A stretch of DNA of 14,779 bases, taken from Longimicrobiales bacterium (GTDB taxonomy: Bacteria > Gemmatimonadota > Gemmatimonadetes > Longimicrobiales > RSA9). The notes under the pieces are model-generated. The model saw only the letters and a program-made list of their open reading frames with translations. It did not search any database and had not been told where the DNA came from. The stretch lies in NCBI GenBank assembly GCA_039912685.1, contig JBDSPG010000057.1, positions 1 through 14,779 of the forward strand, in the 5' to 3' direction. This document shows, one piece after another, positions 479 to 14,310 of the stretch. Position 1 is the stretch's first letter, and every line of letters begins with the position of its first letter. The position numbers were made by a program, and so were the translations under genes.

Positions 479-1213
479 CTACCAGCGCCGGACCAAACCC
501 ACGCCGACATACCATTCGCCCGCGCCATTAAGCCGATGCCCCACTCGCGCGTCCAGCTGCAGGTCTCCTGTGATGCTGCGCGTCATCCCGACATCCGTGA
601 AAACCGCATGGTCCCGAAACGGGCCGTTGAGCACGCGAGTGCCGTATGCCTCGGCGAAGACTCCCGTGCGCCTCCCGATCTCAGCACCCAGGACAATGCT
701 GCCACTCGCTTCGCCCGACCGGCCGGATGGTCCGGGCTGTGAAGCGAATGATGCATTCGCACCCAGCGCGACGCTCTCACTCAATGGACGCTCCAGGGAC
801 AACAGGACTTCAGGTACCACGCCATCCGCCGTTTCCGTTGACGCACCCGTCGGAAATATGGCACCCACGATGACCGCGGCCCGCGGTGAAAGCGAAAATT
901 TTGCGCCGATGCCAGCGTCCTCGATGCCGTTCGCCTCGACACCATTCCCACGCGTCAGCACGTAGGAGTTCGCCAACACGCGCAGTTCGAACCTGCGCGT
1001 CAGACCGATACGCAGCAGCAGCTCACCAATCGCGTGGCGACTGATGCCGTCGGTGCGCGTCAGTGTGTATCCGCTCTCCAGCTGCGGACGCGACACCACG
1101 ACCACGCTCTCGGTGAAGTCCGGACGATCACTCGTCAGCTCCTGTGATGATGCGGCTGCCGGTAGCATGAGAACCACGGCAAACAGGAACGGTACCGTCG
1201 GACGTCGCATCAT
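479..1213 (-). CDS. Outer-membrane beta-barrel protein, PF13557 (MetA-pathway/'transporter' family)-like, with signal peptide
   Basis: 244 aa. N-terminal signal peptide MMRRPTVPFLFAVVLMLPAAASSQE. Mature N-terminus TSDRPDFTESVVVVSRPQLESGYTLTRTDG...LLLRIGLTRRFELRV resembles the family consensus (tDRPgft.s..tv..G.lQlEsGyt...lRiGltd.lElrl). Remainder is rich in alternating beta-strand patterns and ends in aromatic W. Its ATG (1213) overlaps the ZIP gene stop as ATGA. Confidence 0.65.
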   Translation of the reverse strand: MMRRPTVPFLFAVVLMLPAAASSQELTSDRPDFTESVVVVSRPQLESGYTLTRTDGISRHAIGELLLRIGLTRRFELRVLANSYVLTRGNGVEANGIEDAGIGAKFSLSPRAAVIVGAIFPTGASTETADGVVPEVLLSLERPLSESVALGANASFASQPGPSGRSGEASGSIVLGAEIGRRTGVFAEAYGTRVLNGPFRDHAVFTDVGMTRSITGDLQLDARVGHRLNGAGEWYVGVGLVRRW

Positions 1214-2388
1214 GCCGCGACGAACAGGCCGGTCGCGTACATCACGAGCATGCCGAGCGCAAACCCGGCTGCATTGCGTGGACTCGTCAGACCGCGCTCA
1301 CTGCCCGCGAAGAAGCTCGCAATTGCGTAGATGACCTGCGCAATTGCACCCGCTCCGATTGCGAAGAACAACGTGGTAAGTACGGGCGAATAGCTCAACC
1401 CGCCGATCCACGCACCTGCAATAGTCGGCAACCCCGCCAGCAGGCCCAGGCCGATCAGTCGGCTCACACGCGGGCGACCACTTGCCAGCGGCGTAACGAT
1501 CGCAAGGCCTTCCGTCGTATTGTGCAGCAGGAAACCAAGCACCAGGAACGTACCAAGCGCGATCTCTCCCGTCGCATACGCACTACCGACTGCCAGACCC
1601 TCGCCGAGATTGTGCAGTCCGATTCCGATCGCGACCAGCAGCGCCAGACGGTTTGCTGCGCCTTCACCGGTTTGCGTGCGAGAACTGTCCGCACGTCCGA
1701 GTGCAAAGAGCAGCAGCGCCGTCAGCGTGCTGCCGAGCATGACAATGCCGAGCCCCTGATACGCACCGGGAACCAGCTGTGACATATCAAGCGCCTCTGC
1801 CATTGCTTCAATGCCGAGGAAAAGCAGCAGGCCGACCGTGAACGCGAGGAAGAAATCGAGGGTCTCGTGTTCTACTCGGCGAAGGAACGGCAGCCACAAC
1901 AGACCGAGCAGCACAGGAATCACGCCGACATATATGCCGAGCACCGCAAACATGCCGATCTGTTTTGCGCCCGCGCGCGGCGTCTGCACCGCCGCTTGCA
2001 CTTCACTTTCGAACGTCACGCCCGTGCTCGTGACGAGCTTCACTACGTGACGCTCGCCCGTGACCCACGGATATGGAATGGTGATGACACGCGACGACAG
2101 ACGCTCCATGCGACGATCGCCATCGAGCGTGTGCACCCATGCCGCATCATCGATCGTGATCTGCGCGATCGTCACCGGCTCCGCGCCGCCGTTCACAACC
2201 CGTAGCTTCATCACGTTCGGCTCCGGCAGCGTAATTCGCTCGATGACCAGATCTTCAACCGGGATCGCACCTGATTCAAGCATGCCGAGCGGTCCGTGAC
2301 GAAGCAGAATGACAACGAGGATCGCCAGCAGCGCGAGCGGAAACAGTGCGCGCACCCACAGCGACGTATTGCTGCTTGTCTCAGGCAT
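1210..2388 (-). CDS. ZIP-family divalent metal permease (ZupT-like 8-TM core) with an extra N-terminal TM anchor plus a ~110-aa extracytoplasmic beta-rich domain
   Basis: 392 aa. Core motifs GIGLHNLGEGLAVG and FLLHNTTEGLAIV are the ZIP TM4/TM5 metal-site signatures (HNxxEG). Residues ~12-30 form a TM helix. Residues ~31-140 (VEDLVIERITLPEPNVMKLRVVNGGAEPVTIAQITIDDAAWVHTLDGDRRMERLSSRVITIPYPWVTGERHVVKLVTSTGVTFESEV) are hydrophilic and beta-rich before the first core helix. The ATG at 2388 forms an 8-nt overlap (ATGCCTGA) with the MCO stop. Confidence 0.85.
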   Translation of the reverse strand: MPETSSNTSLWVRALFPLALLAILVVILLRHGPLGMLESGAIPVEDLVIERITLPEPNVMKLRVVNGGAEPVTIAQITIDDAAWVHTLDGDRRMERLSSRVITIPYPWVTGERHVVKLVTSTGVTFESEVQAAVQTPRAGAKQIGMFAVLGIYVGVIPVLLGLLWLPFLRRVEHETLDFFLAFTVGLLLFLGIEAMAEALDMSQLVPGAYQGLGIVMLGSTLTALLLFALGRADSSRTQTGEGAANRLALLVAIGIGLHNLGEGLAVGSAYATGEIALGTFLVLGFLLHNTTEGLAIVTPLASGRPRVSRLIGLGLLAGLPTIAGAWIGGLSYSPVLTTLFFAIGAGAIAQVIYAIASFFAGSERGLTSPRNAAGFALGMLVMYATGLFVAA

Positions 2389-3436
2389 GGACTACCGGGC
2401 GGACATTGAATGCACCCGACCAGCCGAGCTCCGCAAACTCGCTTTGATGTGCGTGGAACATGAACTGGCCCGTGTGCTTGTAACGGAACTCCACAACACC
2501 ACGCTCGCCCTGGCACAGCGCAACTGTGTCCGTCGACTCGTACTGCGTCAGGGTCGTGCCGGTCCTGTAGTACTTGAAGATGTTGCCGTGCAGATGAAAT
2601 GAATTCAACAGATCGAATTCCGTCATGTTGCCGAGATAGATGCGCACCAGCTCGCCCTGATCGATCTGGATGGGATGCTTCTGGTAATGAAATGCGACGC
2701 TGTTCACCGCGTACACTTCATTGTCATTGTCGAGGTTCGTGTCAAAGCCATTCATCATCATCACCATCTCGCGCGCTGGCTCGCGCGGCGTCGGTGGATC
2801 GATGATGAACATGCCGTACAGGCCCTTGTGGATGTGGCGCTTGAACGGCGGTACGTGACAGTGGTACAGGTGAACGCCGAACGGCTCCGCGTCGAACTCA
2901 TACACGAACGCGCTTCCGGGCTGCACGATTTCCATCGCGCCATCCATGTTCGCCGGATGAACGCCATGAAAATGCATCGTGTGCGGGTGCGTGCCGCCAT
3001 TCACGAACCGGACTCGCACGCGGTCACCCTCCGTGCAGCGGATCGTCGGACCCGGCACGCTGCCGTTGTACGTCCACGCGGGGAAATAAAGGCCGGGCGC
3101 GATCTCGATCTCGCGATTCGTCGCAACGATCTCGTACTCGCGTACCCTACGGCCGTCCGCGGATGCGGCCTCGCGGCCATATTCGAAGTGTGTCAGAAAT
3201 GCATCGGGATCGAGGCCACCGGGCTTGATGTCACCTACAACATCGAGTGCGTGCGGTGAGTGTGCGTCATGCGACGACATCAGCGGGGTCACCGTCGACT
3301 CAGGCGCAGACCCTGCAACCGCCCGCGCGATCCCCGCGGATGCCGCGGCCACGGCCGCTGTGCCCAACGCGCCCCTGCGCAGAAGAGTCCGTCGTGTAAT
3401 GGATTTGTCGTTCCGATCGGTCATAGGCCCGCCCAT
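2381..3436 (-). CDS. TAT-secreted two-domain multicopper oxidase (small laccase/NirK-like fold)
   Basis: Copper-ligand motifs in order: HPHTMHFHG (HxH), HLYHCHV...HIH...M (HCH plus T1 His/Met), FHLHG (HxH), FHAHQ (HxH). Twin-arginine signal TRRTLLRRGALGTAAVAAASAGIARA. His-rich mature N-terminus SSHDAHSPHALD. The track ORF 2381..3916 carries a 160-aa Arg-rich N-terminal extension that overlaps the regulator gene and is rejected. Start chosen at the ATG at 3436 (MGGPMTDRNDKSITRR...); an alternative ATG lies at 3424 (MTDRNDK...). Confidence 0.8.
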   Translation of the reverse strand: MGGPMTDRNDKSITRRTLLRRGALGTAAVAAASAGIARAVAGSAPESTVTPLMSSHDAHSPHALDVVGDIKPGGLDPDAFLTHFEYGREAASADGRRVREYEIVATNREIEIAPGLYFPAWTYNGSVPGPTIRCTEGDRVRVRFVNGGTHPHTMHFHGVHPANMDGAMEIVQPGSAFVYEFDAEPFGVHLYHCHVPPFKRHIHKGLYGMFIIDPPTPREPAREMVMMMNGFDTNLDNDNEVYAVNSVAFHYQKHPIQIDQGELVRIYLGNMTEFDLLNSFHLHGNIFKYYRTGTTLTQYESTDTVALCQGERGVVEFRYKHTGQFMFHAHQSEFAELGWSGAFNVRPVVHA

Positions 3437-3457
3437 GTTTATGTCCCGCCCAACTTC

Positions 3458-3486
3458 ATAATTAGGCAGGACTAAAACAATGTCAA
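3458..3486 (-). promoter_or_regulatory. Putative sigma70 promoter for the MCO-ZIP-OMP string: TTGACA(-35)-N17-AATTAT(-10)
   Basis: Minus-strand reading of 3437-3519: ...GGCCTTGACATTGTTTTAGTCCTGCCTAATTATGAAGTTGGGCGGGACATAAAC-ATG. The -35 is a perfect TTGACA (plus 3481-3486). The spacer is 17 nt. The -10 AATTAT (plus 3458-3463) matches 4/6 including A2 and T6. Predicted TSS is ~14 nt upstream of the ATG at 3436. Confidence 0.4.
3462..3475. promoter_or_regulatory. Imperfect palindrome TTAGGCAGGACTAA in the promoter spacer; candidate DtxR/MntR-family operator
   Basis: Outer arms TTAG/CTAA are exact inverted repeats and resemble TTAGG/CCTAA half-sites of DtxR/IdeR-type boxes. It sits between -35 and -10, where repressors of this family typically bind. 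It lies 45 bp downstream of the regulator gene stop. Confidence 0.3.
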
Positions 3487-3519
3487 GGCCAGACTTTCTG
3501 TAATTTACCGCAAACGGGG

Positions 3520-4188
3520 TTAGGCGAGGTCTGGTTCCGGCGGGGCGACCTGGATTTTGGCGGCGATTTCGGCGCCGACCACGCATTCCGTGCCGGCGAC
3601 ACGTAGGCGCAGCGGCCCGTTGAAGGGCGCGCGGTCGAGGATCTCGAGCTGAGCGCCCGGGATCAGTCCAAGTTCGGCAAAGTAGCGGAGCTCGGCGGGG
3701 TCGTCGTCGGGGACTTGCCTCAAGAGTACGGCGGAGCCGACGGGTATTTCGGCAAGCGACGGCAGATGTACGTCTTCGAAAACTCCTGCGGCTGTCGGAA
3801 TTGGCGCGCCATGCGGATCCGCGACAGGTTCGCCGAGTGCCTTGGCCATTCGGTCGATGAGCTCCTCTGAGGCCGAGTGCTCTAGCTGTTCGGCTTCGGC
3901 ATGTACGCGGTCCCATGGGTAGCCGAGCACATGGACGAGGAATGCTTCCAGGATCCGATGACGCCGAATGGTGCGCACGGCGGTATGCGTCCCGCGCGCG
4001 GTCAGCCTCGCGCCATAATAGCGCGTGTGTTCGACGAGGCCCTGCTCCGCCAGCCGCTTGAGCATGCCGGTTACGGAGCCCGCCGCGATGCCGAGCTGGT
4101 CAGCGATCGCTGAAGTGCTTGCCGACTCCCCCTCACGGGAGAGCTGGTAGATCGCCTTGAGGTAGTCTTCGACCGCCGGACTCGTCAT
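3520..4188 (-). CDS. DtxR/MntR-family metal-dependent transcriptional regulator with C-terminal FeoA/SH3-like domain
   Basis: 222 aa. N-terminus MTSPAVEDYLKAIYQL is nearly identical to the B. subtilis MntR N-terminus (MTTPSMEDYIEQIYML). Winged-HTH residues ~20-70. Metal-site region H77...H96-E98-E100-E103-H104. C-terminal SH3-like segment VGSAVLLRQV...LRYFAELGLIPGAQLEIL. Confidence 0.9.
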   Translation of the reverse strand: MTSPAVEDYLKAIYQLSREGESASTSAIADQLGIAAGSVTGMLKRLAEQGLVEHTRYYGARLTARGTHTAVRTIRRHRILEAFLVHVLGYPWDRVHAEAEQLEHSASEELIDRMAKALGEPVADPHGAPIPTAAGVFEDVHLPSLAEIPVGSAVLLRQVPDDDPAELRYFAELGLIPGAQLEILDRAPFNGPLRLRVAGTECVVGAEIAAKIQVAPPEPDLA

Positions 4189-4203
4189 ACCGCAAGATGA
4201 CGT

Positions 4204-4227
4204 GCCGGTCGGAAAACGACAACCGGC
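4204..4227 (-). other. Stem-loop (GCCGG-TCG-GAAAA-CGA-CA-ACCGGC) between flotillin stop and regulator start
   Basis: Inverted repeat GCCGGT...ACCGGC with inner TCG/CGA pairing, in the 41-bp gap 4189-4229. No downstream U-tract on the transcribed (minus) strand, so it is not a canonical intrinsic terminator. Confidence 0.25.
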
Positions 4228-4229
4228 GT

Positions 4230-5723
4230 TTACGGTGCGTCGAGATTCGAACCAGCGGCAGGCGCTCCGACTTTCCCGCCCAGGTTCTTCATAAACGAAT
4301 CGAGGTCCAGCCCCATCGCGCCCGCGACCTGCTCGAGTGCGCGAATGGAAGCGTTCACTTTCTGCGACGTCGCATTAGCGACGCCCTGACCGTTTCCGCT
4401 GTCGATGACAGTGAGGCGGTCGATCTGCACATCCTTCATGGCATCGACGGTGACGCCGAGCAGCGCCGGCATCTTTTCGGCGAGGAAGACCTGCAGTCCG
4501 ATATCGCCGCCCTTGGCGATCTGGGCGAACAGCAGGGCAAGTACTTCCGCCTGCGCGCGACCGCTCTCCATGATCGGGGCGGCCTCCGCCTTGGCGGCAG
4601 ACTCCGCGGCCATACGCGCCGCTTCCGCGGGTTGCACGACATCTGCCTGCAGCCTTGTGCGCTCCGTTTTCACGCGCTGCTCCTGATACGCAGTCTGCGC
4701 TTCCGACTCGGCGCGCTGTGCATTCGCGTGCGCAACCTTTTCCGCGGTTTCCGAAAGCTGCAGCAGCTCCGCCTGTCGTACACGGAGTGCATTCTTCGCT
4801 TCGGAAATTTTCACGTCAGCATTCGCCTGCGCGACTTCCGCGATCTGCTTGGACGCCGCCTGCTGTGTGCGGATCTCCGCGTCCGCCGTAGCGTTCGCGA
4901 CTTCCGCGCGCTGACGTGCCTGCGCCTGGCTCTCCTTGACGTGCGCCTCTGCTTCAGCCTGCGCGACCTGCGCCATCTTGGTCGCTTCCGCCTGCTGCTG
5001 CTTGATCTGTGCGTCGGCCATCGCAGCCGCAACTTCTGCGACGCGCTTCGCTTCGGACTGGCGCAGCCGAGTTTCCGCGATTGCGTTCGCCTTTGCGATC
5101 TCGGCATCACGCAGTGCTTCCGCAGTGGCCTTCTCACCAATCGCCTGCAGATATCCGACCTTGTCGCTTACATGCTGAATCTTGAGCACGTCGAGCTGCA
5201 GGCCGAGCTTCTTCAGGTCGTGATCGGCTTCCTCGGAGAGATGCTCTGCGAATCCGAGACGGTCTTCGTTGACCTGCTCCGGCGTCAGCTTCGACAGCAC
5301 GCCACGCAGGTTACCGGTCAACGTTTCGCGCGCGAGACGCTCGATCTCCGCCTGCGTCTTGCCGAGCAGTCTTTCGACGGCGTTGTTGAATACGGCTTCC
5401 GGTGAGGACGCGATCTTCACGTTCGCGATGGCCTGCACCGCGAGCGGGATGTTGCCTTTGGAGTACGCGTCATCAACGCTGATCTCGAGCGGGATCGTGC
5501 CGAGCGTTAGCCACTGCACGCGTTCCAGAATGGGTATGCGCAGGGTGCGACCGCCGGTTACGGTGCGATAACCGACGCTGCTGCCATCACCGAGCGCGCG
5601 TTTGCGACCCGTAATTGCTGCCGCCATGTTTGGCGGCACGATGATCACGAGGCGGTTTATCGTGAAAAGGATGAGCACTGCGACGGCAAGCAGTACGCCA
5701 CCGATGATCAAGCCCGTATTCAT
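4230..5723 (-). CDS. Flotillin-like SPFH/Band-7 protein (FloT/YqiK type)
   Basis: 497 aa. N-terminal TM helix, then SPFH core (PILERVQWLTLGTIPLEISVDDAYSKGNIPLAVQAIANVKI...). Long Ala/Glu/Gln coiled-coil with ~22-residue repeats. Gly/Ala-rich C-terminus. Start ATG 5723 lies 2 nt after the NfeD gene stop. Confidence 0.9.
   Translation of the reverse strand: MNTGLIIGGVLLAVAVLILFTINRLVIIVPPNMAAAITGRKRALGDGSSVGYRTVTGGRTLRIPILERVQWLTLGTIPLEISVDDAYSKGNIPLAVQAIANVKIASSPEAVFNNAVERLLGKTQAEIERLARETLTGNLRGVLSKLTPEQVNEDRLGFAEHLSEEADHDLKKLGLQLDVLKIQHVSDKVGYLQAIGEKATAEALRDAEIAKANAIAETRLRQSEAKRVAEVAAAMADAQIKQQQAEATKMAQVAQAEAEAHVKESQAQARQRAEVANATADAEIRTQQAASKQIAEVAQANADVKISEAKNALRVRQAELLQLSETAEKVAHANAQRAESEAQTAYQEQRVKTERTRLQADVVQPAEAARMAAESAAKAEAAPIMESGRAQAEVLALLFAQIAKGGDIGLQVFLAEKMPALLGVTVDAMKDVQIDRLTVIDSGNGQGVANATSQKVNASIRALEQVAGAMGLDLDSFMKNLGGKVGAPAAGSNLDAP
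4689..5126 (-). repeat. Imperfect tandem nucleotide periodicity encoding the flotillin EA-rich coiled-coil (22-aa units such as AEVAxAxADAxI...)
   Basis: Protein residues ~200-345 show repeating units RVAEVAAAMADAQIKQQQAEATKM / AQVAQAEAEAHVKESQAQARQR / AEVANATADAEIRTQQAASKQI / AEVAQANADVKISEAKNALRVRQ. The DNA shows recurring gcgcctgcgc / ttccgcg / cttcgc blocks. This also generates long spurious ORFs in other frames. Confidence 0.4.
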
Positions 5724-5725
5724 CT

Positions 5726-6301
5726 TTACTCCGTTTCAGAAGGAAGGAGCGCATCCGCGCGCTCGAACTCGTGGAGAGGCGATACGAACGCAGTGCCTCC
5801 CCTTATCTCTACGACGACAACCTGCTTCCAGGTTTCGGGCTGCAGCGCATTCTTGTCATAGCATTCCGCCATCAGCTCGATTTCGCGACCGCTTCGCTCG
5901 ACGGCAATTTTCCCTCTGCCGCCGCGCAGCGGCAGCACGACGTGGCCGAGCAGACCTTCGAACGAAGCATCCGTTTCCATTGCACCGGAGTTCGTCTGTT
6001 TCAGGTAGCGGAACATCGCGACGCTTGTGAAGGCCGACACAATGCCGGTGAAGAGCGCGCCGAAAAACGCGAGCAGCGGCGCCTTCCCGCCCGACGTGAA
6101 GTGCACCAGCACACCGACCGCGCCGAACGCGAACAGGAAGTACGTCGCTGCGCGCAGTGAAAAGAGCTGCCAGTGCGAATCGGCGCCGTCGTGTTCGATG
6201 TGGATGTGATCGGCCCCCTCGGAGCCGAAGAAATCGCCGGCGAGGGAGAAGAGTGCGAGGCCGCCCCCGAGAACGAGAGCGAACCAGAACAGCGTCAGCA
6301 T
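5726..6301 (-). CDS. NfeD/YqiJ-like membrane protein (flotillin-associated)
   Basis: Two or three N-terminal TM helices (MLTLFWFALVLGGGLALFSLAG...; LFSLRAATYFLFAFGAVGVLV; LLAFFGALFTGIVSAFTSVAMF). C-terminal soluble beta-rich domain (GLLGHVVLPLRGGRGKIAVERSGREIELMAECYDK...VVVVEIRGGTAFVSPL) typical of the NfeD OB-fold. Sits immediately upstream of the flotillin, the canonical gene pair. The track start (GTG at 6406) is replaced by the ATG at 6301, which has a strong SD (GGAGGATCCC-ATG) and leaves a sensible 118-bp divergent intergenic region to the MATE gene. Confidence 0.75.
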   Translation of the reverse strand: MLTLFWFALVLGGGLALFSLAGDFFGSEGADHIHIEHDGADSHWQLFSLRAATYFLFAFGAVGVLVHFTSGGKAPLLAFFGALFTGIVSAFTSVAMFRYLKQTNSGAMETDASFEGLLGHVVLPLRGGRGKIAVERSGREIELMAECYDKNALQPETWKQVVVVEIRGGTAFVSPLHEFERADALLPSETE

Positions 6302-6419
6302 GGGATCCTCCGAAGTGCCGACGGCGCGATATCGTGCCGGAGCGGCGGGTGTCCTACCAAGATAATAGCGGCCGGACGGGACGCCATGAAAATCGGAGCG
6401 GTACACGGTATCTTATCCC

Positions 6420-10376: not shown

Positions 10377-11504
10377 TCAACGACGAAGCACGCGCAGTGT
10401 CGCACTGTCCGACAGTACGGACCAGTCGATCGCCTGATACGTTACGGTGTTGTCACGCCGCACATTGAAGAACAGCGCGGCATGCACGGCCGGATACTTC
10501 GTCCGCATGCTGTCGAGTGCCGCCGCGTACCAACCCGCGCGGTCCCCGCCGACCGACACACTGCCCAGCTCCGCGATCATGATAGGCTTGTTCAAACCCG
10601 ATAGCGATGCGTAGTGTTTGCCGAAGATCTCGTCGAATGTCCACCATCGCGACCAGTTCGCGACAGTGCCGTAATTGAGAGCACCGGTCGAGACCCAGTC
10701 GACATATTGGTCACCTGGCCAGTAAACCTCCCAGCCGGCATAGGCGACATGGGGTGACCACACCCAGATTACGTTCGTCGCACCCGCAGCGCGAAAGCGA
10801 TCGACGACATGGCGCCATGCGGCGATGAAATCCTGCGGCTGGTTGTTCTGCGGGCCCCACGGATACCGATAAGGATCGTTCATCTCGTGTGCGAGGCGCA
10901 GCATGATCAGGTGTTTGCTAGCCTTCGAATCACGCGCCCACTGGTCCAGGTAGAAGTCGTACCTGCCTGCAGCAATCGATGCGAGACCGCCGCGATCGCG
11001 GTCGGCACGAAGCGGAAGGTCGGGATGCTTGCTGTTCTCGAAGTCCGTGAGCCACGGTTCCCAGGTGATCACGGGAATCGAGCCGATTGCATGGATGGCA
11101 TCGACAATACGATCGGGGAACGCCTGCTCGGGTTTGTCGCCCCACGCCGCATATGTCTGGATCAACGCGAGCGGCTTGCCAATCGCTCGCTCCAGGGCCA
11201 GCACACCGTCGAGTGTTGCGGGAGTGCCGTCATCATAGACGCCGAACAGGAACGTGTCGGGATGCACGAGCACTTCGCGATCATCCCGATAACCCTCGAG
11301 CCATTTCATTTGTTCGATGCGACCCGGGCCGCGCAGCTTCATGGCTGCACGGTTCTCCGTCCGGCTCACCAGGTTCGCGACTGTGTGCATCACACGCGCG
11401 AACGGCCCTTCCGTTGCCGATCCTGCAAAAAGCAGTACCAGCACGAGGCCTACGCTCACAAGAGCGGAGATCGCGGTGAGTGCTACACGCTGATGACGTC
11501 GCAT
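10377..11504 (-). CDS. Membrane-anchored glycoside hydrolase, GH26-like (clan GH-A TIM barrel)
   Basis: 375 aa. N-terminal TM anchor ALTAISALVSVGLVLVLLFAG. Acid/base region IMLRLAHEMNDPYRYPWG fits the GH26 signature (lRfgHEmN..w.WwG). A candidate nucleophile sits ~105 residues later in PIMIAELGSVS (GH-A beta7 position). The ATG at 11504 overlaps the GT2 3' end by 22 nt. Confidence 0.65.
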   Translation of the reverse strand: MRRHQRVALTAISALVSVGLVLVLLFAGSATEGPFARVMHTVANLVSRTENRAAMKLRGPGRIEQMKWLEGYRDDREVLVHPDTFLFGVYDDGTPATLDGVLALERAIGKPLALIQTYAAWGDKPEQAFPDRIVDAIHAIGSIPVITWEPWLTDFENSKHPDLPLRADRDRGGLASIAAGRYDFYLDQWARDSKASKHLIMLRLAHEMNDPYRYPWGPQNNQPQDFIAAWRHVVDRFRAAGATNVIWVWSPHVAYAGWEVYWPGDQYVDWVSTGALNYGTVANWSRWWTFDEIFGKHYASLSGLNKPIMIAELGSVSVGGDRAGWYAAALDSMRTKYPAVHAALFFNVRRDNTVTYQAIDWSVLSDSATLRVLRR

Positions 11505-13090
11505 TCAATCAATTCCAGGTCGATGTCATCCCAGGCCGCGCCAGCCCCGGGCGTCCTTGCCTGCCACGCCGCGTATACACCACCCACGCTCAGCATCGCG
11601 GCGAGGGTGGCAAAACCGATCATGCCCCATACGGCCTGACTTGTCAGCACCAGCGTACCGGCAGATTCGAGCAGCAGCCTGTTGTATATCGTCCACCCAA
11701 CTGTCACAGTGTACAGCACCAGCAAAACGAGCAGTGGCCATGCGAGTCGGAAGAAGCGACCACGAACGGCTTCCTTCGCAGTCGGAATATATGGGATCTC
11801 TGCGCGTGCGATCGCGAGAACGGTACCGGCCAGAAATATTGGCCAGCACGCAACCTTCAGCATCATGCCACGCAGATGAAGTCCGCGCTCGTGCCGCACG
11901 TCACACATCCACCGCTGCGAGAACAGGTAGATCACGACCGCTACAATGGCAACCGGTCCGCCCATCACGATGAACTCGTCGAACCGCATGGCGGCCGGCT
12001 GCACGCCTGTCCACAGGTAGACGTAGGGCAGCGCGAGATACATCGGGGCGGTGACCCCGAATAGGTAATACGTTCCGATCGCTGCGTAGGAGAGCCGCTG
12101 CCACCACGACAGTGTTCCCGCCCTGCTGGGCAGCTCTGCAAACATCACTTCGTACACGCCGCGCGCCCACTTCAGCTGCTGCTTGTAGAATGACCCGAGA
12201 TCTTCAGGCACCAGGCCGCGGCTCAGTACTTCGGGGACATAGACCGACCGCCATTTCGATGCGTGCAAACGGATCGATGTGACGAGGTCCTCGGCGAGGC
12301 CGATGCCGTGACCACCGATGGTCTGGAGCGCATCACGGCGGAACGTGCAGTTCGCACCGATCGCAACGGCCGCACCGTGTCCGTGCAGACCAAGCTGTGT
12401 CGGGCCGTAGAACGAATACGTCTGCTCCGCAGCGCCTCTCGCTACGAATGAGCGAGACTGGTTGTAGTATGCTTGCGCAACCTGCACGAAACCGATGTCG
12501 TCGTCATGAAAATGGCCGAGCACACGATCGAGGAAGTTAGGGAACGGGATGTGGTCGGGATCGAGCACGAGGATGAACCGTTCCGTTGTGCGTTGCAGCG
12601 CTGCATTGATCTTGCCTGCCTTCGCACCCGGTATTCCGATGAGCTCGAGCCACACCGCGCCATGCCGTTCGGCGGCCTCGCGCATGCGCGGATCACAAGT
12701 GTCATCGAGCAGGTACGTCGTGTGAGGATAACGAATGTGTGCGCACGCCGCGAGCGTCTTCTCGAACATTGCGAGCGGTTCGCCGGGTGAACTCGTCGTG
12801 AAAATCGCGACACTCATTCCGGCCGGCGCCGGGCGGTGCGCATCCACGCGAATGCGCGCGATGTTGATCCAACCCAGCACAATGCGTGTGATGCCATACC
12901 ACACGGCCAGAGACAGCACGACGAATAAGGGGATACTTGCGACGTTGCTCGCGCGGAACCACCAGTCTCCAAACCGGATAAGCAGCAGGATGCCTGCGCC
13001 GATCAGCGCATGGAGAATGACACGATCGGATCGCGAGACGTCAGCAGCGCGACGCCACCGCATGAGGTCGCGCGTCAGCGCGCGAGCCAC
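11483..13090 (-). CDS. Processive family-2 glycosyltransferase (cellulose-synthase/PgaC/HAS-like exopolysaccharide synthase)
   Basis: 535 aa. Two N-terminal TM helices. GT-A domain has LLDD (UDP-binding D), VLDPDH (DxD), GLAEDL (TED-like) and QQLKW in place of the canonical QxxRW. Four or five C-terminal TM helices. No PilZ domain. The track start is a GTG at 13090, overlapping the upstream gene by 16 nt. An alternative ATG at 13063 (MRWRR...) would leave an 11-nt gap. Confidence 0.9.
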   Translation of the reverse strand: MARALTRDLMRWRRAADVSRSDRVILHALIGAGILLLIRFGDWWFRASNVASIPLFVVLSLAVWYGITRIVLGWINIARIRVDAHRPAPAGMSVAIFTTSSPGEPLAMFEKTLAACAHIRYPHTTYLLDDTCDPRMREAAERHGAVWLELIGIPGAKAGKINAALQRTTERFILVLDPDHIPFPNFLDRVLGHFHDDDIGFVQVAQAYYNQSRSFVARGAAEQTYSFYGPTQLGLHGHGAAVAIGANCTFRRDALQTIGGHGIGLAEDLVTSIRLHASKWRSVYVPEVLSRGLVPEDLGSFYKQQLKWARGVYEVMFAELPSRAGTLSWWQRLSYAAIGTYYLFGVTAPMYLALPYVYLWTGVQPAAMRFDEFIVMGGPVAIVAVVIYLFSQRWMCDVRHERGLHLRGMMLKVACWPIFLAGTVLAIARAEIPYIPTAKEAVRGRFFRLAWPLLVLLVLYTVTVGWTIYNRLLLESAGTLVLTSQAVWGMIGFATLAAMLSVGGVYAAWQARTPGAGAAWDDIDLELIECDVISV

Positions 13091-14310
13091 ATCACCGCCA
13101 CGCTCGCACGAGAGACATCATAAAATGACGTGCGCTCATGCGCTGCACGCAGGTAGAGCGTCATGCGTGTGCCGCGCGGAATGCTGGCGGACGCGGCGGC
13201 CGTCCATGGCTTGAATGACCGCGTCACGAACTGCTGGGACTGACCACGTCCTTGAACCGGCGCGTCCTCGTGGGCGGAGAAGCCGTAACTGCCGTTTATC
13301 TGCAGCGCCGTCACCCGACCGAAACGGAGCTCGCCCAATGCACTGTGTGATGTCACATTCTCGGGTGTGTAGTATGGATCGAACCGTTTGCCGTTCCATC
13401 GCGAGTCGTTCGCATCCTGGTGCGCGGACGCGAGGCCGAGCCTCACGCCGGCAGTGACAGGCGCCAGTACCCAGACATACGCGGACCTGATTTCGGTGCC
13501 ATCCGGATAGCGGTCGGAGCGGACGGCGACGAGTCCGCCAAAGCCGGAAGCGCCCGAGCGATCGAGGGCGAGCTCGATGCCACGCACGGCGATCGCAGTA
13601 TCCAGGCTCGCAAGCGTGCCATGGTAGGTCGAGCGTTCGACGGAAGCGCGCACCGCGGTCTGCGATGCCACGCGGAACGCTGCGATCGCGTGTCCGGTCA
13701 GCGTGGCCCCGCCCGCGTTTCCACCTTCCACGGCTGCACCTCCGCTAAGTGTGATCGGAGTGCCTGCGGGCGACCATGACACGCCGGCACCGCCGGCCAC
13801 AACTGTCGGCGCTGTGGCCGTCGAATCGCTGGCGTAGCGATCGAGTCGTCCCGTCAGCTTCACCACAGCGGACGGCGCCGCAAAGAAGCCGGCCTCAACA
13901 TCGAGCGAACCGGTGCGAATCGGCTGGTCATCTCCAGTCGCTCCCGCGAGTGCACGCACCCATGGCGACGTCGCATGTGCTACGTCGGCATTGAATCGCA
14001 CGATGTCGGCGCGGAGGATCGCATCGTTCGGGGTGATCTCGAGGGCCCGGGCGTATGCGCTACGAGCACGCGCGTAGTCGCCGAGCTGATATAGAATCTG
14101 CGCGCGCAGCCAGTGCACGCCTGCATCCGACGGGTGCTGAGTCAGGTACTCGTCAAGTTGGCGAATCGCGGACGCATACTGCCCGGCGTCCCGCATGCGC
14201 CGCGCCGCCGCAATCTGCGTTGGTTCCTGCGCCGCTGCGCGCGTCACGGCGCTGCACATCAGCGTCAGGACGATCGCTGCGCACCCGTGCCACCCGAAAC
14301 CGCGCGTCAT
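13075..14310 (-). CDS. Secreted TPR-repeat protein fused to a C-terminal outer-membrane beta-barrel-like domain (putative polysaccharide export porin)
   Basis: 411 aa. Signal peptide MTRGFGWHGCAAIVLTLMCSAVTRAAAQE. Two or three TPR-like helices (AGQYASAIRQLDEYLTQHPSDAGVHWLRAQILYQLGDYARARSAYARALEITPND). The rest is Gly/Ala/Ser/Thr-rich with alternating hydrophobic patterns (AIAAFRVASQTAVRASVERS, IELALDRSG, AYVWVLAPVTAGVRLGLASA, MTLYLRAAHERTSFYDVSRASVAVMWLAR) typical of beta-barrel strands. The ATG at 14310 overlaps the arfB stop as ATGA. Confidence 0.6.
   Translation of the reverse strand: MTRGFGWHGCAAIVLTLMCSAVTRAAAQEPTQIAAARRMRDAGQYASAIRQLDEYLTQHPSDAGVHWLRAQILYQLGDYARARSAYARALEITPNDAILRADIVRFNADVAHATSPWVRALAGATGDDQPIRTGSLDVEAGFFAAPSAVVKLTGRLDRYASDSTATAPTVVAGGAGVSWSPAGTPITLSGGAAVEGGNAGGATLTGHAIAAFRVASQTAVRASVERSTYHGTLASLDTAIAVRGIELALDRSGASGFGGLVAVRSDRYPDGTEIRSAYVWVLAPVTAGVRLGLASAHQDANDSRWNGKRFDPYYTPENVTSHSALGELRFGRVTALQINGSYGFSAHEDAPVQGRGQSQQFVTRSFKPWTAAASASIPRGTRMTLYLRAAHERTSFYDVSRASVAVMWLAR

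What the first reader, a model, noticed from the sequence alone, without database searches (positions are those of the whole stretch)
3437..3519. Near-consensus sigma70 promoter with an embedded TTAG-N6-CTAA palindrome right after the regulator gene
The 83-bp gap reads on the coding strand as TTGACA-N17-AATTAT with the palindrome TTAGTCCTGCCTAA inside the spacer. Operator-within-promoter is the classic layout for DtxR/IdeR/MntR repression, and the half-sites resemble the TTAGG/CCTAA arms of iron boxes. This suggests the upstream regulator represses the MCO-ZIP-OMP string directly, giving an internal regulated promoter inside an apparent operon. The palindrome has shorter spacing (14 bp total) than the 19-bp IdeR box, so it may be a distinct operator class.
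Basis: seen in the sequence. Interest (0 to 1): 0.5.

Follow-up and report, generated by a model that had tools for sequence, protein, structure and literature searches.

The report
Manganese-repressor operator inside a promoter
The short palindrome is a genuine binding site for the neighbouring metal-sensing repressor, almost identical to one already crystallised with its repressor in Deinococcus, so it is a correct but fairly ordinary call; it also shows that a copper oxidase, a ZIP transporter and an outer-membrane protein belong to the presumed manganese-starvation response of this soil phylum.

Summary
TTGACA (3486-3481), a 17-nt spacer and AATTAT (3463-3458) form the best sigma-70-like match in the window. 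TTAGTCCTGCCTAA (3475-3462) fills the spacer and overlaps the -10 by 2 bp.

A 4+4 palindrome alone is not significant. Comparison with relatives makes it so. Exact TTAG-N6-CTAA occurs once each in 53 of 81 Gemmatimonadota loci that carry an ortholog of the adjacent DtxR-family regulator (1.8 expected). It is always intergenic, and in the loci examined it precedes Nramp (MntH), the regulator itself, or the MCO-ZIP string. In an independent set of 59 assessable MCO loci, 43 have an exact site and 12 a one-mismatch site.

The window site differs at two central bases from the D. radiodurans dr1709 (mntH) operator ATTTTAGTCGCGCCTAAAATA, crystallised with one DR2539 dimer. The window regulator is 56% identical to DR2539 and keeps its recognition helix and primary metal ligands (Asp/Glu/Glu/His).

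Most likely mechanism: the metal-loaded (probably Mn2+) dimer blocks RNA polymerase at an internal promoter for MCO-ZIP-OMP. The regulator has its own operator-free promoter.

The "distinct operator class" is the known single-dimer DR2539-type box. Verdict: new member of a known kind. No binding or transcription-start data exist for this organism.

The parts
3462..3475 (.). Operator: palindrome TTAG-N6-CTAA (minus strand TTAGTCCTGCCTAA), the predicted binding site for one dimer of the adjacent DtxR-family regulator
   Evidence: It is the only hit in the window. The same pattern is found once each in 53 of 81 regulator loci against 1.8 expected, and upstream of 43 (exact) plus 12 (one mismatch) of 59 assessable MCO loci. 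It differs at 2 central bases from the DR2539 operator ATTTTAGTCGCGCCTAAAATA.
3481..3486 (-). -35 hexamer TTGACA of the internal promoter P(mco)
   Evidence: The TTGAC(A/T)-N5-TTAG spacing is conserved in L082 and L002. A TTGnnn element lies 5-6 nt before the operator in 22 of 56 sites.
3458..3463 (-). -10 hexamer AATTAT (or TAATTA at 3464-3459 with a 16-nt spacer), overlapping the right arm of the operator
   Evidence: The counterpart is AATAAT in L082 and AATTAT in L002. By inference the transcription start would lie near 3451.
3520..4188 (-). DtxR-family metalloregulator (222 aa): wHTH, dimerisation/metal-binding domain and C-terminal FeoA/SH3-like domain; DR2539-like
   Evidence: Pfam PF01325, PF02742 and PF04023. 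Best solved relatives are 5zr4 (3e-41) and DR2539 8pvt/8pw0 (2e-40). It is 56% identical to DR2539 over residues 3-135. Ligands D8/E100/E103/H104 and H77/E81/H96/D124/H126 match DR2539.
4194..4222 (-). The regulator's own promoter-like element: TTGTCG (4222-4217), 17 nt, CATCTT (4199-4194), then 5 nt to ATG 4188. It would give a leaderless or near-leaderless mRNA and has no operator.
   Evidence: Sequence. The TTGyyn-N17/18-CAtcTT-N5/6-ATG arrangement recurs in 7 of 8 other regulator genes closest to the window's (L081-L086, L167, L168), counting L082 read by eye as GATCTT, and in similar form in L001, L006 and L009.
2381..3436 (-). Two-domain multicopper oxidase with a twin-arginine signal (start ATG 3436 or 3424); first gene under the operator
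   Evidence: Pfam Cu-oxidase_3 and Cu-oxidase_2. Closest solved structures are 7rab (5e-111) and 3gdc. The RRTLLRRG motif is read from the translation.
1210..2388 (-). ZIP-family metal transporter; overlaps the MCO stop by 8 nt
   Evidence: Pfam Zip (below the curated cutoff) and NCBIfam ZupT-like. A ZIP gene follows the MCO in every one of the 80 MCO loci that extends far enough downstream.
479..1213 (-). Outer-membrane beta-barrel protein (Phenol_MetA_deg family); overlaps the ZIP stop by 4 nt
   Evidence: Pfam PF13557. The same gene follows ZIP in L082.
3443..3472 (-). Potential 13-bp hairpin GUCCUGCCUAAUU-AUGA-AGUUGGGCGGGAC. It joins the operator core to a downstream degenerate operator-like copy, TTGGGCGGGACATA (3453-3440). 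Significance is unresolved.
   Evidence: region z = -2.4. The pairing is kept in L082 and L084 in the same register. A family-wide test of locus-specific complementarity is not significant (p = 0.24-0.37).

Best explanation
The palindrome at 3475-3462 is the operator of the regulator encoded just upstream (3520-4188). That regulator is a DtxR-family, DR2539-like sensor, most likely of manganese. One metal-loaded dimer binds TTAG-N6-CTAA. The site sits between the -35 and -10 hexamers of a sigma-70-type promoter and overlaps the -10 by 2 bp, so the bound dimer excludes RNA polymerase. This shuts off the translationally coupled genes for a Tat-exported two-domain multicopper oxidase, a ZIP transporter and an outer-membrane barrel. 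When the metal is scarce the apo-repressor leaves and the three genes are transcribed from about 3451. The regulator gene is not under this operator. It has its own conserved, operator-free promoter (4222-4194). Shown here: the sequence features, their conservation and their co-occurrence with the regulator, Nramp and MCO-ZIP genes, and the match to a crystallised operator-repressor pair. Inferred: binding, repression rather than activation, the identity of the metal, and the transcription start.
For: (1) The promoter scores 10 of 12, the best in the window. The same TTGAC(A/T)-N5-TTAG-N6-CTAA-(T)AAT/TTAT layout occurs in L082 (regulator 83% identical) and in L002 (62% identical), although the flanks have diverged.
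(2) Exact TTAG-N6-CTAA occurs in 53 of 81 regulator loci, once each, against 1.8 expected. Eight more loci have a one-mismatch site at the same relative places.
(3) In the loci examined the sites precede Nramp-Usp-regulator (Pfam checked for L016), regulator-Nramp-MCO-ZIP (tblastn), or MCO-ZIP directly.
(4) An independent retrieval by MCO similarity gave 59 assessable loci. Of these, 43 have an exact site and 12 a one-mismatch site upstream of the gene string, and 4 have none.
(5) The D. radiodurans DR2539 operator in the mntH (dr1709) promoter is ATTTTAGTCGCGCCTAAAATA. It was crystallised with one dimer (PDB 8PW0; bioRxiv 10.1101/2024.02.12.579695). Binding depends on Mn(II) or Fe(II) (PMC3327659). 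The window reads TTTTAGTCCTGCCTAA, 14 of 16 bases identical.
(6) The regulator is 56% identical to DR2539. Its recognition helix is GSVTGMLKR against ASVTGMLRK. DNA-contact residues S24, T25, A35, S38, T40, G41, H54 and Y57 are the same as in DR2539. Primary-site ligands D8/E100/E103/H104 equal D11/E102/E105/H106.
(7) There is no other site on the contig and no Rfam family in the gap.
Against: There are no experimental data for this organism or phylum. The sigma-A consensus of Gemmatimonadota is assumed, not known. No intrinsic terminator lies between the regulator stop and the promoter, so read-through from the regulator's promoter may also feed MCO-ZIP-OMP, and the internal promoter is not proven. 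DR2539 responds to Fe(II) and several other cations in vitro, so the metal cannot be assigned from sequence. Three DR2539 DNA-contact residues differ (Q28 to S, P38 to A, A39 to G), as does one ancillary-site ligand (D130 to A). About 20 of 81 regulator loci show no site within the 4-kb flanks. The left arm here is TTAGT rather than the commoner TTAGG (12 against 33 of 56 sites).
Confidence: 0.8

Rival explanations
1. The site is the regulator's operator, but the physiological signal is iron, or both iron and manganese. The MCO-ZIP-OMP string would then be an iron-related module, for example ferroxidase-linked.
For: DR2539 binds its operator with Fe(II) as well as Mn(II) in EMSA (PMC3327659) and with several other cations. 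The half-sites are those of IdeR/DtxR iron boxes. Multicopper oxidases are classic ferroxidases: Fet3 appears among the distant PDB hits. L002 has the same promoter-operator in front of a di-haem oxidoreductase.
Against: The primary site has Asp and Glu where Fe-selective DtxR/IdeR have Met10 and Cys102 (residue roles are from established DtxR literature). The commonest gene behind the operator in relatives is Nramp/MntH, the canonical manganese importer. The binuclear ancillary site is described as typical of Mn-activated family members.
Confidence: 0.2
2. There is no functional internal promoter. MCO-ZIP-OMP is transcribed by read-through from the regulator's promoter, and the bound repressor acts as a roadblock rather than by promoter occlusion.
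For: No terminator is predicted between the regulator gene and the operator. In most relatives the regulator is translationally coupled to the downstream genes in a single operon, with the operator upstream of the whole string.
Against: The window, L082 and L002 all keep a near-consensus -35 at a fixed 5-nt distance and an A/T-rich -10. The 83-bp gap exists only in the clade where the operator sits after the regulator. In relatives the operator always sits in a promoter-like context preceded by TTGnnn.
Confidence: 0.1
3. The relevant element is an RNA hairpin (3472-3443) in read-through transcripts. It would be a U-less terminator or stabiliser for the regulator mRNA, or a structure that masks the MCO ribosome-binding region. 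The palindrome would be only part of its 5' arm.
For: A 13-bp stem with three G-U pairs and no mismatches is predicted. G-U pairs work only on the sense strand. L082 and L084 keep pairing in the same register, with some changes on both sides.
Against: No run of U follows the stem. The 3' arm coincides exactly with a second, degenerate operator-like copy 22 bp downstream, so an inverted duplication of the operator explains the complementarity. Across 95 sites, cognate complementarity does not exceed non-cognate (p = 0.24-0.37). This reading does not explain conservation of TTAG/CTAA across more than 100 loci with variable centres.
Confidence: 0.08
4. It is a chance 4+4 palindrome in an A/T-rich promoter with no regulatory role.
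For: Within the window the pattern is not significant. Short inverted repeats are expected by chance in any 83-bp stretch.
Against: 53 exact sites against 1.8 expected, one per locus, all at promoter-like positions. 55 of 59 MCO loci have a site. 14 of 16 bases match a crystallised operator.
Confidence: 0.02

Closest known systems
Deinococcus radiodurans DR2539 and its operator in the dr1709 (mntH) promoter (PDB 8PVT/8PVZ/8PW0; PMC3327659; bioRxiv 10.1101/2024.02.12.579695)
   Same: Both are three-domain DtxR-family regulators, 56% identical, with Asp/Glu/Glu/His primary ligands, Lys at the position of B. subtilis MntR Glu11, and a nearly identical recognition helix. The operators are ATTTTAGTCGCGCCTAAAATA against tgTTTTAGTCCTGCCTAAttat, the same TTAG-N6-CTAA unit, bound there by one dimer. 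In both cases the operator lies in the promoter of a metal-uptake gene.
   Different: The target here is an MCO-ZIP-OMP string rather than mntH, although mntH is the target in many Gemmatimonadota relatives. The DR2539 'tertiary' metal site (E74/H78/E110/E113) is not conserved (R72/R76/E108/I111). One ancillary ligand differs (D130 to A128), as do three DNA-contact residues. The phylum is different.
IdeR/DtxR 19-bp iron box (TTAGGTTAGGCTAACCTAA; own knowledge of the consensus)
   Same: The half-site words TTAG and CTAA are the same, as is the operator-over-promoter logic and the protein family.
   Different: By inspection, the iron box is two TTAG-N6-CTAA units overlapping with a 5-bp offset, and it binds two dimers. 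The window has a single unit. The regulator has Asp8 and Glu100 instead of the Fe-type Met10 and Cys102.
Mycobacterium tuberculosis MntR (Rv2788; PDB 5zr4 is the best-scoring solved relative, 3e-41)
   Same: Same subfamily: the DR2539 paper groups DR2539 and MtMntR by helix alpha-3. Both have three domains and control Mn importers.
   Different: Its validated target sequences (for example ATTGCGACGTCGACGGTACA) do not contain TTAG-N6-CTAA.
Bacillus subtilis / E. coli MntR (two-domain MntR proper)
   Same: Mn-dependent repression of mntH by a DtxR-family dimer bound over the promoter.
   Different: These proteins have no C-terminal SH3/FeoA domain and have a binuclear site using Glu11 (Lys11 here). 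The operator is different (AATTTGCCTTAAGGAAACT). The NCBIfam equivalogs score far below cutoff.
Corynebacterium glutamicum MntR repressing a ZIP-family transporter (recalled from memory: Baumgart and Frunzke 2015; not checked here)
   Same: A DtxR-family Mn sensor directly controls a ZIP transporter gene.
   Different: As far as I recall, no multicopper oxidase or outer-membrane partner is involved, and the operator sequence is different.

Membership tests
DR2539-type (DtxR-family, Mn-responsive) repressor-operator pair | The regulator has an N-terminal wHTH, a dimerisation/metal-binding domain and a C-terminal SH3-like (FeoA) domain | tested here: met
   PF01325, PF02742 and PF04023 all score above their cutoffs.
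DR2539-type (DtxR-family, Mn-responsive) repressor-operator pair | Primary metal site Asp11/Glu102/Glu105/His106, and ancillary site His79/Glu83/His98/Asp126/His128/Asp130 | tested here: met
   The alignment against the ligand list gives D8/E100/E103/H104 (4 of 4) and H77/E81/H96/D124/H126 plus A128 (5 of 6).
DR2539-type (DtxR-family, Mn-responsive) repressor-operator pair | The operator is a pseudo-palindrome of the form TTTTAG-N6-CTAAAA, bound by one dimer | tested here: met
   The window reads TTTTAGTCCTGCCTAA and dr1709p reads TTTTAGTCGCGCCTAA. Stoichiometry was not tested.
DR2539-type (DtxR-family, Mn-responsive) repressor-operator pair | The operator is conserved in front of Mn-uptake genes next to orthologous regulators | tested here: met
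   53 of 81 loci carry an exact site. Nramp is the first gene downstream in the Pfam-checked examples, and a similar ~460-aa ORF follows in roughly 30 loci.
DR2539-type (DtxR-family, Mn-responsive) repressor-operator pair | Metal-dependent DNA binding and repression | not testable with these tools
   This needs EMSA or footprinting and in vivo reporters.
IdeR/DtxR iron box | A 19-bp box with two overlapping dimer sites (a second TTAG/CTAA pair offset by 5 bp) | tested here: not met
   The sequence ttgtTTTAGTCCTGCCTAAttatg has no second pair at +/-5.
IdeR/DtxR iron box | Fe-type primary ligands Met10 and Cys102 | tested here: not met
   The equivalent positions hold Asp8 and Glu100. The DtxR equivalog scores 85 against a cutoff of 290.
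MntR proper (B. subtilis / E. coli type) | A two-domain protein of about 140-155 aa with a binuclear site that includes Glu11 | tested here: not met
   The protein is 222 aa with a FeoA/SH3 domain and has Lys11 at that position. The NCBIfam MntR equivalogs score 72-82 against cutoffs of 138-153.
Thermus-type MntR (NCBIfam NF047407) | Score at or above the equivalog cutoff | tested here: not met
   It scores 186 bits against a cutoff of 350. This is the best NCBIfam hit, but only a relative.
Sigma-70-type promoter | -35 and -10 hexamers with a 16-18 nt spacer | tested here: met
   TTGACA, 17 nt, AATTAT, scoring 10 of 12. The arrangement is conserved in L082 and L002.
Sigma-70-type promoter | A mapped transcription start | not testable with these tools
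   This needs 5'-RACE or differential RNA-seq.

The most novel reading that the evidence does not exclude
The operator marks a conserved, previously undescribed metal-starvation module in Gemmatimonadota. In it, a Tat-exported two-domain multicopper oxidase is always paired with an N-terminally extended ZIP transporter, often translationally coupled to it. In this clade an outer-membrane barrel is added. The module is co-regulated with, and often co-transcribed with, Nramp under a DR2539-like Mn sensor. If the oxidase acts together with the ZIP importer, this would be a new kind of oxidase-assisted divalent-metal uptake. For example, it could oxidise competing Fe(II) or Cu(I) in the periplasm, or process the substrate metal.
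Probability: 0.3. Interest if true: 0.6.

Novelty: new member of a known kind. Interest (0 to 1): 0.35.

Why it matters
This gives a well-supported regulon anchor for the DtxR/MntR-like sensor of Gemmatimonadota, an abundant soil phylum with few cultured members. The 14-bp box TTAG-N6-CTAA can be searched in any genome of the phylum. The DR2539 crystal structure can be carried over to explain recognition. The box also ties a two-domain multicopper oxidase plus ZIP pair of unknown role to the presumed manganese-limitation response, a link I did not find in the literature searched. It also shows how the regulatory wiring changes between clades: the same operator sits in front of Nramp-Usp-regulator, in front of regulator-Nramp-MCO-ZIP, or, as here, after a separately transcribed regulator. 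The operator mechanism itself is textbook.

Tried and rejected
(1) Window-only statistics for the palindrome are not significant, so the case had to rest on comparison with relatives.

(2) An exact-sequence look-up of the window regulator found nothing. Look-ups of close homologs gave only four loci with DNA spanning the regulator-to-next-gene gap (L081-L084), three of which (L081, L082, L084) show the window's layout. Several samples returned no DNA.

(3) A terminator between the regulator gene and the promoter: none was found.

(4) The RNA hairpin or covariation idea for 3472-3443. The first test gave p = 0.03. The stricter test, using only the six central bases that are not fixed by ascertainment, gave p = 0.24-0.37. 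I therefore dropped it as a family-wide feature and kept it only as a clade-specific oddity.

(5) Known RNA families, including Mn riboswitches: no match.

(6) Literature on MntR in Gemmatimonadetes, and on MCO plus ZIP under MntR: nothing specific. A search by PDB codes 7RAB/3GDC gave nothing useful on the oxidase. A search for a Thermus MntR operator found none.

(7) The Mtb and B. subtilis MntR operators were compared and rejected as models because their sequences differ.

(8) The uORF ATGAAGTTGGGCGGGACATAA (3459-3439) was considered and dropped because it is absent from L082.

Full report
**1. What is in the sequence**

The window is a complete 14,779-bp contig of a Longimicrobiales (Gemmatimonadota) metagenome-assembled genome. 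The regulator protein is 100% identical to a protein that NCBI names as coming from such a MAG, on a contig of exactly this length.

The minus strand carries a run of genes:
- an NfeD-like ORF (5726-6406)
- a flotillin/SPFH protein (4230-5723)
- a 222-aa DtxR-family regulator (3520-4188), with PF01325, PF02742 and a C-terminal FeoA/SH3 domain PF04023
- a two-domain multicopper oxidase with a twin-arginine signal (2381-3436, or starting at 3424)
- a ZIP transporter (1210-2388, overlapping the oxidase stop by 8 nt)
- an outer-membrane barrel of the Phenol_MetA_deg family (479-1213, overlapping the ZIP stop by 4 nt)

The gap after the regulator gene reads, on the coding strand, cTTGACAttgttTTAGTCCTGCCTAAttatgaag. 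The elements are:
- TTGACA at 3486-3481
- a 17-nt spacer
- AATTAT at 3463-3458
- the palindrome TTAG-N6-CTAA at 3475-3462

The promoter scan ranks this as the best sigma-70-like site in the window, at 10 of 12. It lies in the local G+C minimum.

**2. Is it more than chance?**

Within the window alone it is not. Allowing one mismatch, 0.7 matches are expected and half of the shuffles have one. Allowing two mismatches, the window has fewer matches than expected. The test has to come from related sequences.

A scan of species-representative genomes with the regulator protein returned 80 Gemmatimonadota loci at 50-71% identity. In these plus the window (647 kb in total), exact TTAG-N6-CTAA occurs 53 times, once in each of 53 sequences. 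Shuffles that preserve local composition give 1.8 +/- 1.2. Every site is intergenic, is on the regulator's strand, and follows a TTGnnn element. Eight further loci have a one-mismatch site at the same relative position.

The site logo is a/t-TTAG-G-y-T-A-r-C-CTAA-A/t. The window's centre (TCCTGC) is a less common variant, but the arms are canonical.

**3. What the sites control**

Three layouts recur.
- (a) Operator, then Nramp (MntH), then a universal stress protein, then the regulator. In roughly 30 mostly Gemmatimonadaceae/Gemmatimonadales loci the site lies about 1.9-2.0 kb upstream of the regulator. In 11 of them the Nramp start codon lies exactly 9 nt after CTAA.
- (b) Operator, then regulator, then Nramp, then MCO, then ZIP, with the genes abutting or overlapping.
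- (c) Regulator, then a gap containing the operator, then the next genes. This is the window's layout.

Layout (c) is shared by its closest relatives:
- L082 (regulator 83% identical; same NfeD-flotillin-regulator-MCO-ZIP-OMP order): cTTGACTtaattTTAGTCTTGCCTAAtaatt
- L081 (81% identical) and L084 (85% identical)
- L002 (62% identical), where cTTGACAaatatTTAGGGCCGCCTAAttatt precedes a di-haem oxidoreductase

The -35 to operator spacing (5 nt) and the A/T-rich -10 that overlaps CTAA are the same in the window, L082 and L002. The rest of the gap has diverged. This pattern is a phylogenetic footprint.

As an independent test I retrieved 80 metagenomic loci by similarity to the oxidase. ZIP follows the oxidase wherever the contig extends far enough. 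Of 59 loci with enough upstream sequence:
- 43 have an exact site within 260 nt upstream of the first gene of the (regulator)-(Nramp)-MCO string
- 12 have a one-mismatch site there
- 4 have none

MCO-ZIP is thus a core target of this operator across the group.

**4. Who binds it**

The regulator's best solved relatives are 5zr4 (3e-41) and 8pvt/8pvz/8pw0 (2e-40). The 8PV*/8PW0 entries are D. radiodurans DR2539. 5zr4 is named only 'Metal-dependent transcriptional regulator'; from my own knowledge, supported by the reference, it is M. tuberculosis MntR.

DR2539 represses mntH (dr1709). It binds an inverted repeat in that promoter in a Mn(II)- and Fe(II)-dependent manner (PMC3327659). It was crystallised as one dimer on a 21-bp pseudo-palindrome, with each wHTH reading 5 bp (bioRxiv 10.1101/2024.02.12.579695). 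Table S5 of that paper gives the oligonucleotide as ATTTTAGTCGCGCCTAAAATA. This is TTAG-N6-CTAA. The window's TTTTAGTCCTGCCTAA differs from it only at the two central bases.

The window regulator is 56% identical to DR2539 over residues 3-135. Mapping the paper's residue lists onto the alignment gives the following.
- Recognition helix: ASVTGMLRK in DR2539, GSVTGMLKR here.
- DNA contacts: S26/T27/A37/S40/T42/G43/H56/Y59 are conserved as S24/T25/A35/S38/T40/G41/H54/Y57. R46/K47 become K44/R45. Q28, P38 and A39 differ (S, A, G).
- Primary metal site: D11/E102/E105/H106 equals D8/E100/E103/H104.
- Ancillary site: H79/E83/H98/D126/H128 equals H77/E81/H96/D124/H126. D130 is A128 here.
- The Deinococcus-specific 'tertiary' site is not conserved.

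Asp and Glu at the positions of DtxR Met10 and Cys102, together with Lys at the position of B. subtilis MntR Glu11, place the protein with DR2539, ScaR and SloR. It is neither an Fe-type IdeR/DtxR nor a two-domain MntR. All NCBIfam equivalogs score below their cutoffs.

**5. Mechanism**

The operator fills the promoter spacer and overlaps the -10 hexamer. A bound dimer should therefore exclude RNA polymerase, which is the classic DtxR-family mode of repression. This step is an inference from position.

With Nramp as the commonest co-regulated gene, the likely signal is Mn2+. Because DR2539 responds to Fe in vitro, I put Mn at about 0.7 and keep Fe, or both metals, as a rival.

The regulator in this clade is not autoregulated through this box. 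No site precedes it. It has its own conserved promoter-like element: TTGTCG (4222-4217), 17 nt, CATCTT (4199-4194), then 5 nt to ATG 4188. The same arrangement appears in 7 of 8 other regulator genes closest to the window's, and in similar form in three more distant loci. The short distance to the ATG implies a leaderless mRNA.

No terminator lies between the regulator stop and the MCO promoter. Some read-through is therefore possible, and a bound repressor would also act as a roadblock.

**6. Relation to known systems**

By inspection, the consensus TTAGGTTAGGCTAACCTAA (from my own knowledge) is two TTAG-N6-CTAA units offset by 5 bp. This fits the two dimers seen on iron boxes. The window has one unit, as does the DR2539 operator, which binds one dimer.

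It is therefore not a new operator class. It is the single-dimer form that has already been described. The operators of Mtb MntR and B. subtilis MntR are unrelated in sequence. No Rfam family matches the gap.

**7. Loose ends**

(a) Bases 3472-3443 can form a 13-bp RNA hairpin with three G-U pairs. Its 3' arm is the core of a degenerate operator-like copy, TTGGGCGGGACATA (3453-3440), which starts 22 bp after the operator. L082 and L084 keep this pairing in the same register, with some changes on both sides of the stem. Across 95 sites, however, complementarity within a locus is no better than between loci (p = 0.24-0.37). An inverted, decayed duplicate of the operator, or a weak second site two helical turns away, explains it as well as an RNA structure does. 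From a start near 3451 the 5' arm would not be transcribed at all.

(b) Many relatives carry a second partial site about 22 bp from the main one (TTGACATTAGG... upstream in layout (b); TTTGG...CTCA downstream in some MCO loci). This suggests cooperative binding of two dimers in those promoters.

(c) The role of a periplasmic multicopper oxidase in a presumed manganese-starvation regulon is unknown. Its closest solved relatives (7rab, 3gdc) carry no functional name. I found no paper that links such an oxidase-ZIP pair to MntR.

**8. Verdict**

This is a new member of a known kind: a DR2539-type operator in a new phylum and in front of new target genes. Interest is moderate to low for the operator itself. 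It is somewhat higher for the conserved MCO-ZIP(-OMP) module that the operator places under metal control.

Noticed in passing
window 4186-4222 (minus strand): The regulator gene has its own conserved promoter-like element: TTGTCG, 17 nt, CATCTT, then 5 nt to the ATG. It would give a leaderless mRNA and has no operator. The same arrangement is seen in 7 of 8 other regulator genes closest to the window's, and in similar form in L001, L006 and L009. This clade's regulator is therefore not autoregulated, unlike in Gemmatimonadales, where the operator precedes the regulator.
   Followed up: partly
window 3443-3472 and 3440-3453 (minus strand): A 13-bp potential hairpin (3 G-U pairs, no mismatches) joins the operator core to a degenerate inverted copy of the operator that starts 22 bp downstream. 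It is kept in L082 and L084 in the same register. It is not supported as a family-wide feature (p = 0.24-0.37).
   Followed up: partly
window 3424-3451 (minus strand): GGGCGGG occurs twice, 18 nt apart (3451-3445 and 3433-3427), within a 15-nt imperfect direct repeat. Relatives have GGGTGGG or GGCGGGG 2-3 nt before their ATG, which favours ATG 3424 over 3436 as the oxidase start. The start codon remains ambiguous.
   Followed up: partly
L014, L016, L018, L019, L022, L024, L026, L042, L043, L047, L054 (about 2 kb upstream of the regulator): In operator-Nramp-Usp-regulator operons the Nramp start codon (ATG or GTG) lies exactly 9 nt after CTAA. The -10 would then be the TAAnnn that overlaps the operator, and the mRNA would be leaderless.
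   Followed up: partly
L048, L061, L068, L069, L070, L074, L075, L077 (50-57 nt upstream of the regulator): The -35 hexamer is followed directly by a second partial site (TTGACATTAGG...CTyA), 21-22 bp upstream of the main operator. This suggests two dimers on the same face of the helix in the autoregulated regulator-Nramp-MCO-ZIP operons.
   Followed up: no
L002 4793-4806 and downstream: The same TTGACA-N5-operator-TTAT promoter as in the window sits after the regulator, but it drives a di-haem oxidoreductase (PF06537, putative peroxidase) followed by two ORFs with no Pfam match. This is a different cargo under the same switch.
   Followed up: partly
L083 1082-1150 (just after the regulator stop): A tandem array of about seven GGCTAAT units, each containing the CTAA half-site, followed by other G-rich simple repeats. 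No full operator is present and the next gene is a MarR regulator.
   Followed up: no
window 1210-3436; L087-L166: The two-domain multicopper oxidase is followed by the ZIP gene in every one of the 80 metagenomic loci that extends far enough. In the window the two overlap by 8 nt. The ZIP protein has an N-terminal extension of about 150 aa before the Pfam Zip match. The oxidase has its HCH (type-1 copper) motif in domain 1, and its closest structures are 7rab and 3gdc.
   Followed up: partly
window 10377-14310 (minus strand): A GH26-like hydrolase, a family-2 glycosyltransferase (cellulose-synthase-like) and a TPR protein form an apparent exopolysaccharide cluster. The same neighbours occur next to the regulator-MCO-ZIP genes on the 28.8-kb contig that carries P0006.
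   Followed up: no
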